NCBI RefSeq assembly: GCF_009914755.1
Contig: NC_060926.1
Source of the DNA: the human T2T-CHM13v2.0 reference genome, Homo sapiens
Reading direction: 5' to 3' (one strand)
DNA length: 64,000 nt
Shown here: piece after piece, positions 37,791 through 45,257 of the stretch
Layout of the letters: each line of letters opens with the position of its first letter
Position numbering within the stretch: position 1 is the stretch's first letter
Position numbers and translations under genes: made by a program
The notes under the pieces: generated by a model
The model's input: the letters and a program-made list of their open reading frames with translations, nothing else
What the model was told of the DNA's origin: nothing
Databases searched by the model: none

Positions 37791-38630
37791 TCTCTACTGG
37801 TAGCCAGGATTACCGTTTCCTTGTAGGAAAACTGGTAGAGAAAATTGAGTTCTTATAATAAATTCCATAACAGCAGCTTAGCTGTAAATGATTTTTTAAA
37901 AGTCATTTGACTGTGCAAACTGGTTAGAGCATAAATATTTTAATGATATTTCAAGAGCTTAATGTCAACCATCAGTGTCCAATAAATGAAAATTACTTTT
38001 AGTGATACATCTGGAAATATGATGGTTTTTTGAGCCAAAGTCTCTCAAGCTTTGCATAGAATCTGAATTTTTATTTTTACTCTGTGCCTGTTATATAAAC
38101 TTCTTATATTTGTTAGAGGAAAAGAAGATAAATTGGACACTACCTGGGATATTGAAAAATGAATAAAATGTTAAGACATGTTAAATTTATTGTTGGCTCA
38201 TTGAGGGAAAGAAAGTCAATAATTTATTTAAGAAAAACAATTTTACTTAAAGAAAGGGCAATATTTTAATAAGCAGAAATAGGAGAGGGAATATATTTTC
38301 AAATGAAAGCAGCACCACTGGAATGAAAAATGTAATGTGCCAAAGTCGCTACTTTGAAGGGGAGCGTGCTCATCTGAATGTAAAATCTTGTTATATTCCT
38401 GTAAAACCCTAACTTTATTTTCATTCTTATCTGTTTAATCATTTAACTAATATTTATCAAATACCCACTCTGTGTAATGGTGTTGTGGGAGGAAATTGTG
38501 GGGCCACAAAGACCCCGGTGAAGGAACGCCAGAGCATGTGAAAGCAGAAGATGCATCATCAAAGGATACCCGAAGATGTCTAAAAGAAGCTCGGTGGGAA
38601 AGCTGAGTGCTTGGAAGAACCAGGGTAACA

Positions 38631-40621
38631 ATGTGACAAAGTGAAAGCAGACATTCTGCTTAAGTTCTTTAAAGCATTTGTTATGAAGTGGGGGAGTAAA
38701 AGTTAGGACTCAGAGTTTGTTATCACTTTTTAGTACAGTAAGGCAGTTTTGCCCATGGTTCCTGGAACAGGGACTATGGAGTTGGATGAATGGGAGAGAA
38801 TTGGAAGAGATTTTTTTTTTTAATTATACTTTAAGTTTTAGGGTACATGTGCACAATGTGCAGGTTTGTTACATATGTATACATGTGCCATGCTGGTGTG
38901 CTGCACCCATTAACTTGTCATTTAACATTAGGTATATCTCCTAATGCTATCCCTCCCCCCTCCCCCCACCCCACAACAGGCCCCGGTGTGTGATGTTCCT
39001 CTTCCAGTGTCCATGTGTTCTCATTGTTCAATTCCCACCTATGAGTGAGAACATGCGGTGTTTGGTTTTTTGTCCTTGTGATAGTTTGCCGAGAATGATG
39101 GTTTCTAGCTTCATCCATGTCCCTACAAAGGACATGAACTCATCCTTTTTTATGGCTGCATAGTATTCCATGGTGTATATGTGCCACATTTTCTTAATCC
39201 AGTCTATCATTGTTGGACATTTGGCTTGGTTCCAAGTCTTTGCTATTGTGAATAGTGCTGCAATAAACATACCTGTGCATGTGTCTTTATAGCAGCATGA
39301 TTTGTAATCCTTTGGGTATATACCCAGTAATGGGATGGCTAGGTCAAATGGTATTTCTAGTTCTAGATCCCTGAGGAATCGCCACACTGACTTCCACCAT
39401 GGTTGAACTAGTTTACAGTCCCATCAACAGTGTAAAAGTGTACCTATTTCTCCACGTCCTCTCCAGCATCTGTTGTTTCCTGACTTTTTAATGATTGCCA
39501 TTCTAACTGGTGTGAGATGGTATCTCATTGTGGTTTTGATTTGCATTTCTCTGATGGCCAGTGATGATGAGCATTTTTTCATGTGTCTTTTGGCTGCATA
39601 AATGTCTTCTTTTGAGAAGTGTCTGTTCATATCCTTTCACCCAATTGTTGATGGTTTTTTTTTTTTTCTTGTAAATTTGTTTGAGTTCATTGTAGATTCT
39701 GGATATTAGCCCTTTGTCAGATGAGTAGATTGCAAAAATTTTCTCCCATTCTGTAGGTTGCCTGTTCACTCTGATGGTAGTTTTTTTGCTGTGCAGAAGC
39801 TCTTTAGTTTAATTAGATCCCATTTGTCAATTTTGGCTTTTGTTGCCATTGCTTTTGGTGTTTTAGACATGAAGTCCTTGCCCATGCCTATGTCCTGAAC
39901 GGTATTGCCTAGGTTTTCTTCTAGGGTTTTGATGGTTTCAGGTCTAACATTTAAGTCTTTAATCCATCTTGAATTAATTTTTGTATAAAGTGTAAGGAAG
40001 GGATCCAGTTTCAGCTTTCTACACATGGCTAACCAGTTTTCCCAGCACCATTTATTAAATAGGGAATCCTTTCCCCATTTCTTGTTTTTGTCAGGTTCGT
40101 CAAAGATCAGATGGTTGTAGATATGCGGCATTATTTCTGAGGGCTCTGTTCTGTTCCCTTGGTCTATATCTCTGTTTTGGTACCAGTACCATGCTGTTTT
40201 GGTTACTGTAGCCTTGTAGTATAGTTTGAAGTCAGGTAGTGTGATGCCTCCAGCTTTGTTCTTTTGGCTTAGGATTGATTTGGCAATGCGGGCTCTTTTT
40301 TGGTTCCATATGAACTTTAAAGTAGTTTTTTCCAATTCTGTGAAGAAAGTCATTGGTAGCTTGATGGGGACGGCATTGAATCTATAAATTACCTTGGGCA
40401 GTATGGCCATTTTCATGATATCGATTCTTCCTACTCATGAGCATGGAATGTTCTTCCATTTGTTTGTATCCTCTTTTATTTCATTGAGCAGTGGTTTGTA
40501 GTTCTCCTTGAAGAGGTCCTTCACGTCCCTTGTAAGTTGGATTCCTAAGTATTTTATTCTCTTTGAAGCAATTGTGAATTGGAAGAGATTTTTTTTTAAA
40601 AAGGTGTATAAAGACAGAGCA
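38631..40621 (+). pseudogene. gag: HERV-K gag matrix remnant (about 70 codons) split by an L1PA
   Basis: ATG at 38631 followed by TGA (M*QSESRHSA; ancestral MGQ inferred), LLSLFSTVRQFCPWF, ELDEWERIGRD|L1|FKKVYKDRA; frameshifted. Confidence 0.85.
38811..40575 (-). mobile_element. 5'-truncated L1PA (about 1.77 kb) inserted in gag
   Basis: ORF2 C-terminal ORFs (39766-40416 and others), 3'UTR and T tail at 38811; TSD gaattggaagagatttt starting at 38798 and 40576; target TTTT/AA is the canonical L1 endonuclease site. Confidence 0.97.
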
Positions 40622-42277
40622 GTGACGGGTACCACGGAGGGTGCTGCTGAGGCGATGATGGCAGAGGGGCCCAAGGAAGTCCGAGGCTGTCCTCTGGGGC
40701 ATGACGAGGGCGGAGGGGACCAGGAGCCCGTCCCTTCCCTGAGGGGCCCTCCTGCCGCCATCCCATGCCCCCGCGCCGGCCCCCAGGGCCACCGCCGCTG
40801 ATGGGTCGGAGCCACCCCGCGGGCTCAGGAGGAGCCGGGAGGCGACCTCGGGCTCCCTTGCGGGGCTGCAGGAGCAGGTAGGCTGCTTGAAGTGTCGGAA
40901 GCTGCGGCGCCGTGGGAGAGGCCGGCGCGGCTGAGCGCCCTTGGGTGCTCCTGGCGAGTGCACGAGTGACTGTGGCAGTCCTGCTGCGGCTACCTCACCT
41001 GGCGCAGTGGCCCGGCTACACTCCCCGACTGCTATAGCCCCCAACCGTCCCGGCAGAGCTTCTCTTTGGAGGCACTGCCGTCCCCCAGGCCGCGGCGCCG
41101 CCATCCCCACGGCTGGGCTATTACAACCCCTTCTACTTCCTGAGCCCCAGGGCCGCGGGGGCTTGACCCGGGGGCAGCTGCTGGCATCAGCACCCCTGCT
41201 ACAGTCACGGGCCTGGGACCCTGGGTTCCTCATGTGCAGGCATCAATCCGGGCCACTCCAGTGACAAAGGTAGGATCTGCAGCCCCTTCCCGAAGCCAGA
41301 GTGAGACCGGGCAACCGGCAGGCAAAGAATAAGTTATTCCATCCTTGGGCCACGGGTGGCAAGGATGGTGGATTTCTTTATTATCTTCTTTGTAAAAGCA
41401 ACCATTGTCTTAAGCATTATGCACCTCAGTGGGATAAAGGATATCTCTAAGTTTGCTATGCATTATATAATGGAAGAAATAGATGAGGACACATCAACGG
41501 AAGACTTGCTGAAAATGATGGTTATGGCTCTTATATACAGATTATTAGTTTGTTTTTATGAGATAATTTTCATTTGGGGAGCAGGTGGAGCTACCCCAGG
41601 GAAGCTCCTGGTGGGGCTTCGAGTTGTGACATGTGATACATTAGTGCTTATTGCACTAAGTCGTGTTTTAGTGATTCCTTTTTCAAATGTTAGCATTACA
41701 ACGTCCACTATACGAGCTTTGATCAAGAATTTTTTGATTGCTTCTTTTTTCCCTGCTTTTATCACACTGCTGTTTCTTCAACATAATCGAACAGCCTATG
41801 ACATTGTAGCAGGAACCATTGTGGTAAAAAGAAATGGGGTCAGAGATGCCCCCCCAAAGACCTGATTTCCACACGCTATAATGACAAGACTAAATTATGT
41901 ATCAAGGCCATCAGTATCCCTGGGTTCCACTAACTGATGATTTAGAAATTAAAGCAATCACTCCAGTGTGATGCAGCTGACTACTCTGAAAGTTTTGATT
42001 GTACTTGAATGCCAAAAACTTTTCCAGAAGAAAAACCTATTAAATTCAAGTATTAAAATTTTTAGATCAAAAAGGCAAATGATTTTATAAACAATGAACA
42101 ATATATACTTTCTTAAGATCTAAGGTACTTTCATAAGATCTAAGAATTTGCTGAAAGCATTTTCAGCTTTGAAATCTCCAAATGAAACTTTAAAATTGAT
42201 TTTGGTTTATCCCAAAACAATGGAAAATGTCCAGTTGTGTTTTGTAAACATGTATGTAACTCATCTTTTAGTTCACA
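40622..42277 (+). pseudogene. FAM8A1: FAM8A1 intronless pseudogene (5'UTR piece, CDS about 40658-41845, partial 3'UTR); locus number not determined
   Basis: [10 protein letters not shown]...[30 protein letters not shown] 41356-41865 MVDFFIIFFVKATIVLSIMHLSGIKDISKFAMHY...HNRTAYDIVAGTIVVKRNGVR is the FAM8A1 RDD region. Stops (40799, about 41330) and frameshifts; no introns; no poly-A. Confidence 0.95.
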
Positions 42278-44150: not shown

Positions 44151-44923
44151 TGGACCCACCTGTACAGTGCAAATTGAAGGCTGAAGGATTGCTTTTAAGC
44201 CTCGATTTGCTTTCTCTGTGCCTTCTGTTAGAAGGGGCCTGCTTCTTGTTATCAATGGTAAGTTTTACCCCATGCTAATTAACCAAAGAGGCAGAAGCTG
44301 AGTTACAAATGCTTCAGCAATGGCATGCCTCCTGGCTGCAGCCACAAAAGTTTTTGCTTCTGTTTCAGTAGATTTACTAACGTGGCAGTGAGGGTAGGCT
44401 TGTGGTTTTGCAGGAGATAAGCAAAACATGTAGGTGCCCTCAAGATGTGTACGACCATGGAACAGGAGACTGGAAGGACCCATGGATCCCAACCATGGAC
44501 TGGGTTCCCCCAGTATGAGCCATGCTGAGAAACTGCTGGAGTGCCAAGGTTTTACCTATAGTTGCTTAACGGACCAGTGCTTTCTGACTGAACTCCTCTC
44601 TACCCTGAATACAAGAGACCCTAATAGGTAGGATCGCCCCTATTCAGCATGAAGAAGTTACAGAAGATGGACCTTCATCCTTCTGCAACCCCTAGGATTA
44701 AGGGTCCTCTTGTAAAAGGGAAAGGGGAGATATGTGGGAAGCATTCAAACCAGAGCAACTCCATTTTGAATAAGGGCTAAGAAAAATAAAGCTGGATCAC
44801 CAACCGGCAAATAAGGGCTGTACAGCCTGCAATTGCGTTGCTCAATTAATTTAAAAAAGAGGCCACCTTATGCTAATAATAATGATAGCTGTGGTGGTTT
44901 TTACAAAAAAGAGATGGGGGCCA

Positions 44924-45257
44924 TGTTGGGAGAAAAGCTGAGTGTTGGGAGAGAAGCTGAGGCAGGGCTTGCATGTCTGCTAGACGTGTTGGCTCCTTGC
45001 TTCTAGCACTCCCATTATCTCAAGCAGCCATGTTTTTCATTCACTTGATACACTGTTTCCTTTCAACCCCCACATCCTCACCACCTGTTTGAGCATCAAT
45101 AAATAGCGTGGGCTCCCAGAGCTCGAGGGCCTTTGCAGCCTCCACACTTGCGATGGCCCCCTGGTCTTACTTTCTCTCTCATACTTTTTCTCATTCCTTT
45201 GACTCTGCTGGACTTCATTGCCCTCAAGACCTGGTGTTAGGTCTTATCACCCCAACA
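44924..45257 (+). mobile_element. 3' LTR (LTR14A-like, 334 bp)
   Basis: tgttggg...cccaaca termini; PPT aaaaaagagatggggg at 44905-44920; AATAAA at 45098-45103. Confidence 0.9.

What the first reader, a model, noticed from the sequence alone, without database searches (positions are those of the whole stretch)
38497..45257. Endogenous retrovirus that captured a cellular gene (FAM8A1)
Seen: a spliced FAM8A1 copy replaces most of gag and the start of dUTPase. It has no poly-A tail and no TSD and joins viral sequence directly at about 40622 and 42277, so it does not look like an L1-made pseudogene that landed here. Knowledge: this is the architecture of acutely transforming retroviruses, formed by RT template switching on a co-packaged mRNA. 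FAM8A1 is a HRD1 ERAD-complex component, and HERV-K transduction of FAM8A1 is, from memory, published, so the phenomenon is rare but not new. Inference: this is one of several copies spread in trans by a helper virus.
Basis: partly seen in the sequence, partly recalled or inferred. Interest (0 to 1): 0.8.

Follow-up and report, generated by a model that had tools for sequence, protein, structure and literature searches.

The report
HERV-K provirus carrying captured FAM8A1 (FAM8A3P)
This is a decayed endogenous retrovirus that long ago swapped most of its gag gene for a spliced copy of the human gene FAM8A1 and then spread to a few other chromosomes, a rare event that was already published in 2001 and is annotated as the pseudogene FAM8A3P.

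Summary
Window 38497-45257 is a 5'-truncated HERV-K-type provirus with this layout:
- PBS remnant, leader and gag start
- an antisense L1 inserted later
- FAM8A1 cDNA
- dUTPase, protease, G-patch, RT
- a 1.43-kb pol deletion
- integrase C-terminus and the 3' LTR

All four FAM8A1 introns are removed exactly. About 1.66 kb of cDNA replaces 1,453 nt of viral sequence, from the rest of gag to the first part of dUTPase. There is no poly(A) and no target-site duplication at the insert ends. Both joints lie in short shared stretches: 6-8 nt at 40614-40621 and 12 nt at 42277-42288.

The same two joints occur at three other loci (chr11, chrY, chr6q). Their flanks are unrelated, and the chr6q copy has a perfect 6-bp duplication. 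This indicates one capture followed by spread as a gag-less, helper-dependent genome.

The captured reading frame is broken, and a surviving 166-169-codon RDD-domain ORF shows no sign of selection.

The case is in print (Jamain et al. 2001, seen here only as cited by Tan et al. 2016) and in RefSeq. It is already known, so interest is low.

The parts
38497..38504 (+). Last 8 nt of the primer-binding site. The 5' LTR and the first ~10 nt of the PBS are missing.
   Evidence: Alignment with the 5' LTR-PBS-leader of the chr11, chr6q and two insert-free copies. No second LTR copy anywhere in the window.
38497..38814 (+). Leader and start of gag (matrix/p10 N-terminal part)
   Evidence: 82-90% identity to related proviruses. 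Pfam Gag_p10 positions 17-43 at 38690-38812, E 1.1e-06.
38815..40575 (-). 5'-truncated L1 inserted after integration, present only in this copy. Its poly(A) reads as a T run on the + strand next to the left duplication.
   Evidence: ORF 39766-40416 (-) matches L1 ORF2p residues 813-1024, E 4.7e-134. The other three copies are uninterrupted at this point.
38798..38819 (.). Left copy of the L1 target-site duplication (17 nt certain, up to 22 nt counting the T run)
   Evidence: 22 identical nt at 38798 and 40576
40576..40597 (.). Right copy of the L1 target-site duplication
40576..40621 (+). gag sequence resuming after the L1, up to the 5' joint
   Evidence: Alignment with insert-free copies
40614..40621 (+). 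5' crossover zone shared by virus and FAM8A1 5' UTR (8 nt, 7 of 8 match the parent; exact core of 6 nt)
   Evidence: The same joint is present in all four copies.
40614..42288 (+). Spliced FAM8A1 cDNA (RefSeq FAM8A3P). Cell-only part is 40622-42276, 1655 nt: part of the 5' UTR, the whole former CDS and ~430 nt of 3' UTR.
40658..41847 (+). Former FAM8A1 coding region (parent 413 codons). This copy has 6 indels (5 frameshifting) and 2 stops, all in codons 1-249, and has lost the stop codon.
41365..41865 (+). Residual open frame (166 codons from ATG, 169 from GTG at 41356) covering the RDD domain
   Evidence: Pfam RDD, E 8.5e-12. No sign of constraint.
42277..42288 (+). 3' crossover zone, 12 nt shared by the FAM8A1 3' UTR and viral dUTPase
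   Evidence: The same joint is present in all four copies.
42360..42512 (+). dUTPase remnant (profile positions 55-107 of 129)
42597..42880 (+). Retroviral protease, split over two frames
   Evidence: RVP positions 2-58 and 58-100 in different frames
42902..43030 (+). G-patch
   Evidence: E 1.5e-09
43027..43719 (+). Reverse transcriptase N-terminal part (open 230-codon frame)
   Evidence: RVT_1, E 1.7e-34. Best PDB match 7sr6_A, E 2.1e-113, against 1.7e-37 for the next hit.
43718..43719 (+). Joint of a 1,427-nt deletion removing the end of RT, RNase H and most of integrase
   Evidence: Maps to positions 5540 and 6968 of the insert-free chr2:84.47M copy
44039..44128 (+). Integrase C-terminal DNA-binding domain remnant
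   Evidence: IN_DBD_C, E 1.4e-05
44924..45257 (+). 3' LTR (334 nt), preceded by a purine run at 44905-44923
   Evidence: Matches both LTRs of the chr11 and chr6q copies
45258..46620 (-). Host target: an old pogo/Tigger-like DNA transposon cut by the provirus. Its other half is missing from the window.
   Evidence: 3649 candidate matches in the genome. DDE_1 profile positions 24-122 of 177 end at the provirus. Related copies continue at least 900 bp further, and that part is absent from the whole window.

Best explanation
Window 38497-45257 is FAM8A3P. It is one of four human copies of a replication-defective HERV-K-type (betaretrovirus-like) genome that captured a spliced FAM8A1 mRNA.

**Most likely mechanism (inferred).**
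1. A FAM8A1 mRNA was packaged together with viral RNA.
2. During minus-strand DNA synthesis, reverse transcriptase jumped from the viral dUTPase region onto the FAM8A1 3' UTR at a 12-nt match.
3. It copied the spliced mRNA back to its 5' UTR.
4. It jumped back to viral gag at a 6-8-nt match.

**Result.** The chimera kept the LTRs, PBS, leader and start of gag (the usual place of packaging signals) and the pol region. It lost capsid and nucleocapsid. It could therefore multiply only with Gag supplied by intact relatives.

**Spread and decay.** It integrated at least four times at unlinked sites during the family's burst tens of millions of years ago. Afterwards the chr2 copy:
- lost its 5' LTR together with the neighbouring host DNA
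- took up an L1 in the gag stub
- lacks 1.43 kb of pol (timing unknown)
- accumulated frameshifts and stops in FAM8A1

It has no evident present function.
For: **Shown.**
- Exact intron loss and a 413-codon parent frame.
- Identical 5' and 3' joints in all four copies, each in a short stretch shared by virus and gene.
- Of the 40 matches scored with the 3' joint probe (67 candidates): 4 span the joint, 1 is the parent gene matching only the cell side, and 35 are insert-free proviruses matching only the viral side.
- The parent 3' UTR continues past the joint, so there is no poly(A).
- 1,453 nt of gag-dUTPase is present in an insert-free copy and absent here.
- Flanks of the four copies share only scattered ~280-bp dispersed repeats.
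- The chr6q copy has a perfect 6-bp duplication. The chr11 copy has 4 of 6.
- Trees are star-like and distances are similar. Non-CpG K2P in exons 2-5 is 0.043-0.065 copy to parent and 0.067-0.092 copy to copy.
- LTR-pair K2P is 0.081-0.129.

**Literature.**
- Tan et al. 2016 cite Jamain et al. 2001 for this capture, with microsimilarity at the fusion points (PMC5131818, passages).
- HML-1/HERV-K14I is dated ~39 My, with 68 proviruses (PMC3778440, Table 1 passage).

**Inferred.** Co-packaging, the direction and order of the switches, and helper dependence.
Against: - The viral-part tree does not show the four copies as one clade. Of 200 bootstrap trees, 0% have them together. Holding them together is not rejected (p-AU 0.31).
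- A 23-nt deletion shared by the chr11, chrY and chr6q copies, but not this one, suggests an order of descent. The substitution tree does not support that order.
- This copy has no 5' LTR and no visible target-site duplication, so its own mode of integration cannot be checked.
- The 5' joint could instead have formed at the DNA level or in a read-through transcript. Microhomology does not exclude that.
- The chr11 duplication is imperfect (4 of 6).
- Neither Jamain 2001 nor Flockerzi 2005 could be read. Which copies they described, and how, is known here only through citing papers.
Confidence: 0.93

Rival explanations
1. Classical read-through transduction. A provirus sat upstream of FAM8A1 on chr6p. 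A deletion or read-through transcript fused gag to exon 1, the transcript was spliced and packaged, and only the 3' joint was made by one template switch.
For: This is the textbook route for oncogene capture (established knowledge). The insert starts in the 5' UTR of exon 1, so a fusion upstream of the gene is geometrically possible.
Against: The 5' joint also lies in a 6-8-nt shared stretch, as the 3' joint does. This is the mark of copy-choice. Tan et al. describe the same pattern for LTR-element-made retrocopies. In the 9.5 kb of the parent locus fetched (about 570 bp upstream of the insert's first base), nothing matched the proviral part of the window.
Confidence: 0.2
2. An ordinary L1-made processed pseudogene of FAM8A1 landed in a resident provirus, and the four copies arose by segmental duplication.
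For: L1 was active at this very spot: a later L1 with a 17-22-nt duplication sits 24 nt upstream of the 5' crossover zone.
Against: There is no poly(A) and no duplication at the insert ends. 1,453 nt of viral sequence is lost rather than merely interrupted. The four copies have unrelated flanks, and one has its own 6-bp duplication.
Confidence: 0.01
3. DNA-level recombination or gene conversion between a FAM8A1 retrocopy and a provirus in the genome, with the product later copied.
For: Microhomology-mediated joining of DNA ends can also give 6-12-nt overlaps (established knowledge).
Against: It needs two precise breaks that keep the insert in the sense orientation, inside an element that then still retrotransposed to at least three further sites with integrase-type duplications. 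No free-standing FAM8A1 retrocopy exists in the genome: one search gave 10 matches, namely this copy, three proviral copies, five parent exons and one 73-nt weak hit.
Confidence: 0.03

Closest known systems
FAM8A1 transduction by HERV-K (Jamain et al. 2001, Genomics 78:38; pseudogenes FAM8A2P onwards)
   Same: This is that case. RefSeq names the stretch FAM8A3P. The joints show the microsimilarity that Tan et al. 2016 quote from the paper.
   Different: Nothing in kind. The paper itself could not be read. Whether it reports the missing 5' LTR, the L1, the per-copy pol deletions or the T2T copy count of four is therefore unknown to me.
Acutely transforming retroviruses (v-onc capture, helper-dependent defective genomes)
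   Same: An intronless cellular gene replaces viral genes between the LTRs. The joints show short homologies. The genome is defective and multiplies only with a helper.
   Different: The captured gene is not a known oncogene. Capture and spread were in the germ line. No fusion frame with gag is preserved that could be judged.
LTR-retrotransposon-mediated retrocopies (Tan et al. 2016, PMC5131818)
   Same: A retrocopy flanked by LTR-element sequence, with microsimilarity at the switch points, 3' truncation, no poly(A) and no duplication.
   Different: Here the chimera went on to make further copies (four loci).
HML-1 / HERV-W hybrid proviruses (Flockerzi et al. 2005, as summarised in PMC3778440)
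   Same: An internal stretch is replaced by foreign sequence, and progeny copies have different flanks.
   Different: There the foreign sequence is another retrovirus. Here it is a cellular mRNA.

Membership tests
Retroviral transduction of a cellular gene | Intronless, sense-oriented cellular sequence inside the provirus | tested here: met
   Five exons joined exactly at GT-AG introns. The parent frame reads 413 codons once joined.
Retroviral transduction of a cellular gene | Viral sequence is replaced, not merely interrupted | tested here: met
   1,453 nt of gag-dUTPase in the insert-free chr2:84.47M copy is absent here.
Retroviral transduction of a cellular gene | No poly(A) and no target-site duplication at the insert ends; joints in short homologies | tested here: met
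   Shared stretches of 6-8 nt and 12 nt. The parent 3' UTR runs on past the joint.
Retroviral transduction of a cellular gene | The chimera was propagated as a retroviral genome: same joints at independent integration sites | tested here: met
   Four loci with unrelated flanks. 6 of 6 duplication at chr6q and 4 of 6 at chr11.
Retroviral transduction of a cellular gene | Dependence on a helper virus | not testable with these tools
   Inferred from the shared loss of capsid and nucleocapsid.
HERV-K supergroup (class II, betaretrovirus-like) | Order gag, then dUTPase-protease-G-patch, then RT-IN; RT closest to HERV-K | tested here: met
   Pfam order. PDB 7sr6_A, E 2.1e-113, against 1.7e-37 for the next hit. 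That 7sr6 is a HERV-K RT is recalled: the tool names it only 'Polymerase'.
HERV-K supergroup (class II, betaretrovirus-like) | Lysine-tRNA primer-binding site | tested here: inconclusive
   An 18-nt site follows the 5' LTR in related copies, and only its last 8 nt survive here. That it fits tRNA-Lys is recalled, not tested.
HML-1 / HERVK14 with LTR14A/B | Match to the family's reference internal sequence and LTR | not testable with these tools
   No repeat library was available. 67 candidate genomic matches to the dUTPase stretch fit the 68 proviruses quoted for HML-1, but that is weak support.
L1-made processed pseudogene | Poly(A) tail and 7-20-bp duplication at the ends of the retrocopy | tested here: not met
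   The only such duplication belongs to the separate L1 at 38815-40575.
FAM8A1 / RDD-domain protein gene (functional copy) | Intact reading frame under purifying selection | tested here: not met
   5 frameshifts and 2 stops in codons 1-249. Lineage-specific changes in codons 250-413 are 6 synonymous to 9 non-synonymous, like the clearly broken copies.

The most novel reading that the evidence does not exclude
The chr2 copy is the only one of the four in which the whole RDD (three-helix membrane) domain of FAM8A1 is still an open, ATG-started frame (41365-41865). If it were transcribed and translated, it would give a truncated FAM8A1-like membrane protein that might interfere with or add to HRD1-complex assembly.

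A small RNA-seq preprint lists FAM8A3P among up-regulated transcripts (PMC9258287, passages; padj 0.059). Multi-mapping from FAM8A1 is not excluded there.

My tests speak for chance survival:
- 54% of neutral simulations keep this stretch free of stops.
- The ratio of changes does not differ from the broken copies.
- No promoter is evident, since the 5' LTR is gone.
Probability: 0.02. Interest if true: 0.5.

Novelty: already known. Interest (0 to 1): 0.2.

Why it matters
This is one of very few documented cases in humans of a retrovirus capturing and spreading a cellular gene in the germ line. Tan et al. 2016 call it the single case described earlier, and they find three LTR-flanked retrocopies in all. 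It therefore serves as a natural record of template switching and helper-dependent spread.

For this scan it matters mainly as a correct call on a known, annotated feature. The exact joints, the copy list in a complete genome and the state of each copy are small additions.

Tried and rejected
1. **Is the surviving RDD frame conserved?** No sign of it. dN/dS-type counts and a neutral simulation show nothing special.

2. **Is a pol deletion particular to the FAM8A1-bearing copies?** All four have one, each with different ends. In coordinates of the insert-free chr2:84.47M copy they are 5541-6967, 5798-7176, 5256-6665 and 5126-7180.
   - Among 8 insert-free copies examined, 4 have internal pol deletions, 1 is cut off after 5119, and 3 are whole.
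   - The trait is therefore family-wide.

3. **Does the break inside the PBS mark a product of failed plus-strand transfer, inserted without integrase?** Not supported.
   - The 3' LTR ends at the processed CA, directly against host DNA.
   - The other half of the host transposon is missing along with the LTR.
   - A plain later deletion explains both.
   - It cannot be excluded without an outgroup genome.

4. **Order of descent among the copies.** A shared 23-nt deletion is not backed by the trees.

5. **Sources that gave nothing.**
   - Supplement search of Tan et al. for the locus: no hit in 2 files, and 1 file was not searchable.
   - Jamain 2001 and Flockerzi 2005 are not held.
   - PDB holds no FAM8A1 relative of the ORF.

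
Full report
**What is there.** Reading the span and comparing it with related loci of the same genome gives a clear anatomy.

- Viral homology begins at 38497 with the last 8 nt of a primer-binding site. It runs through the leader and the first part of gag to 38814. Pfam finds Gag_p10 at 38690-38812.
- At 38815-40575 lies a 5'-truncated L1 on the minus strand.
  - Its ORF at 39766-40416 matches L1 ORF2p residues 813-1024 at E 4.7e-134.
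  - It is flanked by a 17-22-nt duplication at 38798 and 40576.
  - The three sister copies are uninterrupted here, so the L1 came later.
- gag resumes for a few bases and meets FAM8A1 sequence.
- After the insert come:
  - dUTPase (profile positions 55-107)
  - protease, in two frames
  - G-patch
  - an open 230-codon piece of RT
  - a deletion joint at 43718/43719
  - the integrase C-terminal domain
  - about 0.8 kb with no recognisable env
  - a 334-nt LTR at 44924-45257
- There is no 5' LTR anywhere in the 64-kb window.

**The insert.**

- A genome-wide search with 40614-42288 gave 10 matches: this locus, three other long copies, the five exons of FAM8A1 on chr6p, and one weak 73-nt hit on chr5.
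- The exon ends in the parent are all GT-AG introns and are joined exactly in the copy. The joined parent reads 413 codons.
- The parent 3' UTR continues beyond the joint, so the capture ends about 430 nt past the stop codon without a poly(A).

**The joints.**

- An alignment of the four copies, two insert-free proviruses and the parent shows the 5' joint in a stretch shared by gag and the FAM8A1 5' UTR. This is window 40614-40621: 8 nt with 7 matching, and an exact core of 6. Cell-only sequence starts at 40622.
- The 3' joint lies in 12 nt shared by the 3' UTR and dUTPase (42277-42288).
- Both joints are the same in all four copies.
- With a probe across the 3' joint, 40 matches were scored out of 67 candidates:
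  - 4 span the joint
  - 1 is the parent, matching only the cell side
  - 35 are proviruses matching only the viral side
- The insert-free copy at chr2:84.47M has 1,453 nt where the insert sits. That stretch holds the rest of Gag_p10, both Gag_p24 domains, the zinc finger and the first part of dUTPase.
- So 1,655 nt of cell-only sequence replaced about 1.45 kb of virus.

**Spread.** The copies lie at chr2 (this window), chr11:56.27M, chrY:13.23M and chr6:135.79M.

- Their flanks share only scattered ~280-bp dispersed repeats at non-corresponding places.
- The chr6q copy has both LTRs and a perfect 6-bp duplication. The chr11 copy has both LTRs and 4 of 6.
- The chrY copy is truncated in early gag but keeps its 3' LTR.
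- This indicates one capture and then several integrations. Because capsid and nucleocapsid were already gone, I infer that Gag came from intact relatives.

**Age.**

| Measure | Value |
|---|---|
| Non-CpG K2P, exons 2-5, copy to parent | 0.043-0.065 |
| Non-CpG K2P, exons 2-5, copy to copy | 0.067-0.092 |
| LTR-pair K2P, chr11 copy | 0.129 |
| LTR-pair K2P, chr6q copy | 0.081 |
| LTR-pair K2P, two insert-free copies | 0.078 and 0.067 |

- A tree of 1,008 viral bases from 16 copies is a polytomy. The four copies are not shown to be one clade (0% of bootstrap trees), and holding them together is not rejected (p-AU 0.31).
- The FAM8A1 tree is star-like too.
- This fits a short burst. A review table gives ~39 My and 68 proviruses for HML-1/HERV-K14I (PMC3778440, passage). 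The family name itself was not tested here.

**State of the captured gene.**

- In this copy the former coding region (40658-41847) has 6 indels, 5 of them frameshifting, and 2 stops. All are in codons 1-249.
- Codons 250-413, the RDD domain (Pfam E 8.5e-12), remain open as a 166-169-codon frame, and the stop codon is lost.
- Lineage-specific changes in codons 250-413:

| Copy | Synonymous | Non-synonymous | Stops |
|---|---|---|---|
| chr2 (this window) | 6 | 9 | 0 |
| chr11 | 5 | 10 | 0 |
| chrY | 5 | 18 | 2 |
| chr6q | 4 | 8 | 1 |

- 54% of neutral simulations with the observed 27 differences stay free of stops.
- I see no evidence of selection.

**The missing 5' end.**

- The downstream flank is an old pogo/Tigger-like transposon: 3649 candidate matches in the genome, and DDE_1 profile positions 24-122 of 177 ending at the provirus.
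- In four related copies the transposon runs on for at least 900 bp past that point, but this part is nowhere in the window.
- The upstream flank is unique sequence.
- The simplest reading is a deletion that removed the 5' LTR, part of the PBS and host DNA.

**pol deletions.** Each of the four copies lacks a different, overlapping 1.4-2.1-kb piece of RT-RNase H-integrase. Among 8 insert-free copies, 4 have internal pol deletions, 1 is cut off and 3 are whole. This is therefore a family trait and not tied to the capture.

**What is known.**

- Tan et al. [quoted passage not shown] They cite Jamain et al. 2001 and re-find it among three human LTR-flanked retrocopies (PMC5131818, passages).
- A review of three-pass membrane proteins repeats the point and names FAM8A1 as an HRD1-complex cofactor, citing Schulz et al. 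2017 (PMC6987440, passages).
- Searches for FAM8A with HERV found 2 papers. Searches for the pseudogene names found only incidental listings.
- The original papers were not held.

**Verdict.** A correct reading of a real, rare, but published and annotated feature.

Noticed in passing
window 38815-40575 (duplications at 38798 and 40576): An antisense, 5'-truncated L1 with a 17-22-nt target-site duplication sits in the gag stub, 24 nt upstream of the 5' crossover zone. It is absent from the three sister copies. The T/A run it leaves next to the insert could be mistaken for a poly(A) of the retrocopy.
   Followed up: yes
window 38497 and 45258-46620: The provirus has no 5' LTR. The break lies inside the primer-binding site, and the other half of the Tigger-like transposon it landed in is missing as well. 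This points to one deletion spanning the provirus edge and host DNA.
   Followed up: partly
L035, L036, L037, window 43718/43719; L039, L049, L051, L052, L054: pol deletions with different end points in 4 of 4 FAM8A1-bearing copies, and pol deletions or truncation in 5 of 8 insert-free copies. Three independent break or insertion points fall within 14 nt (positions 5119-5132 of the chr2:84.47M copy): a truncation, a deletion start and an Alu-like insertion.
   Followed up: partly
FAM8A1 alignment, parent codon 154 (L035, L036, L037 against the window): A 23-nt deletion is shared by the chr11, chrY and chr6q copies but not this one. An 8-nt stretch in the 3' UTR is present in all four copies and absent from today's FAM8A1. 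The first hints at more than one round of copying, but the trees do not resolve it.
   Followed up: partly
L036 (chrY:13.225-13.235M): The chrY copy carries two blocks of Alu-like insertions inside pol and is truncated at the equivalent of window ~38700.
   Followed up: partly
window 44130-44923: Between the integrase remnant and the 3' LTR there is only about 0.8 kb with no recognisable env domain. The insert-free copies are the same, so this lineage seems to lack env.
   Followed up: no
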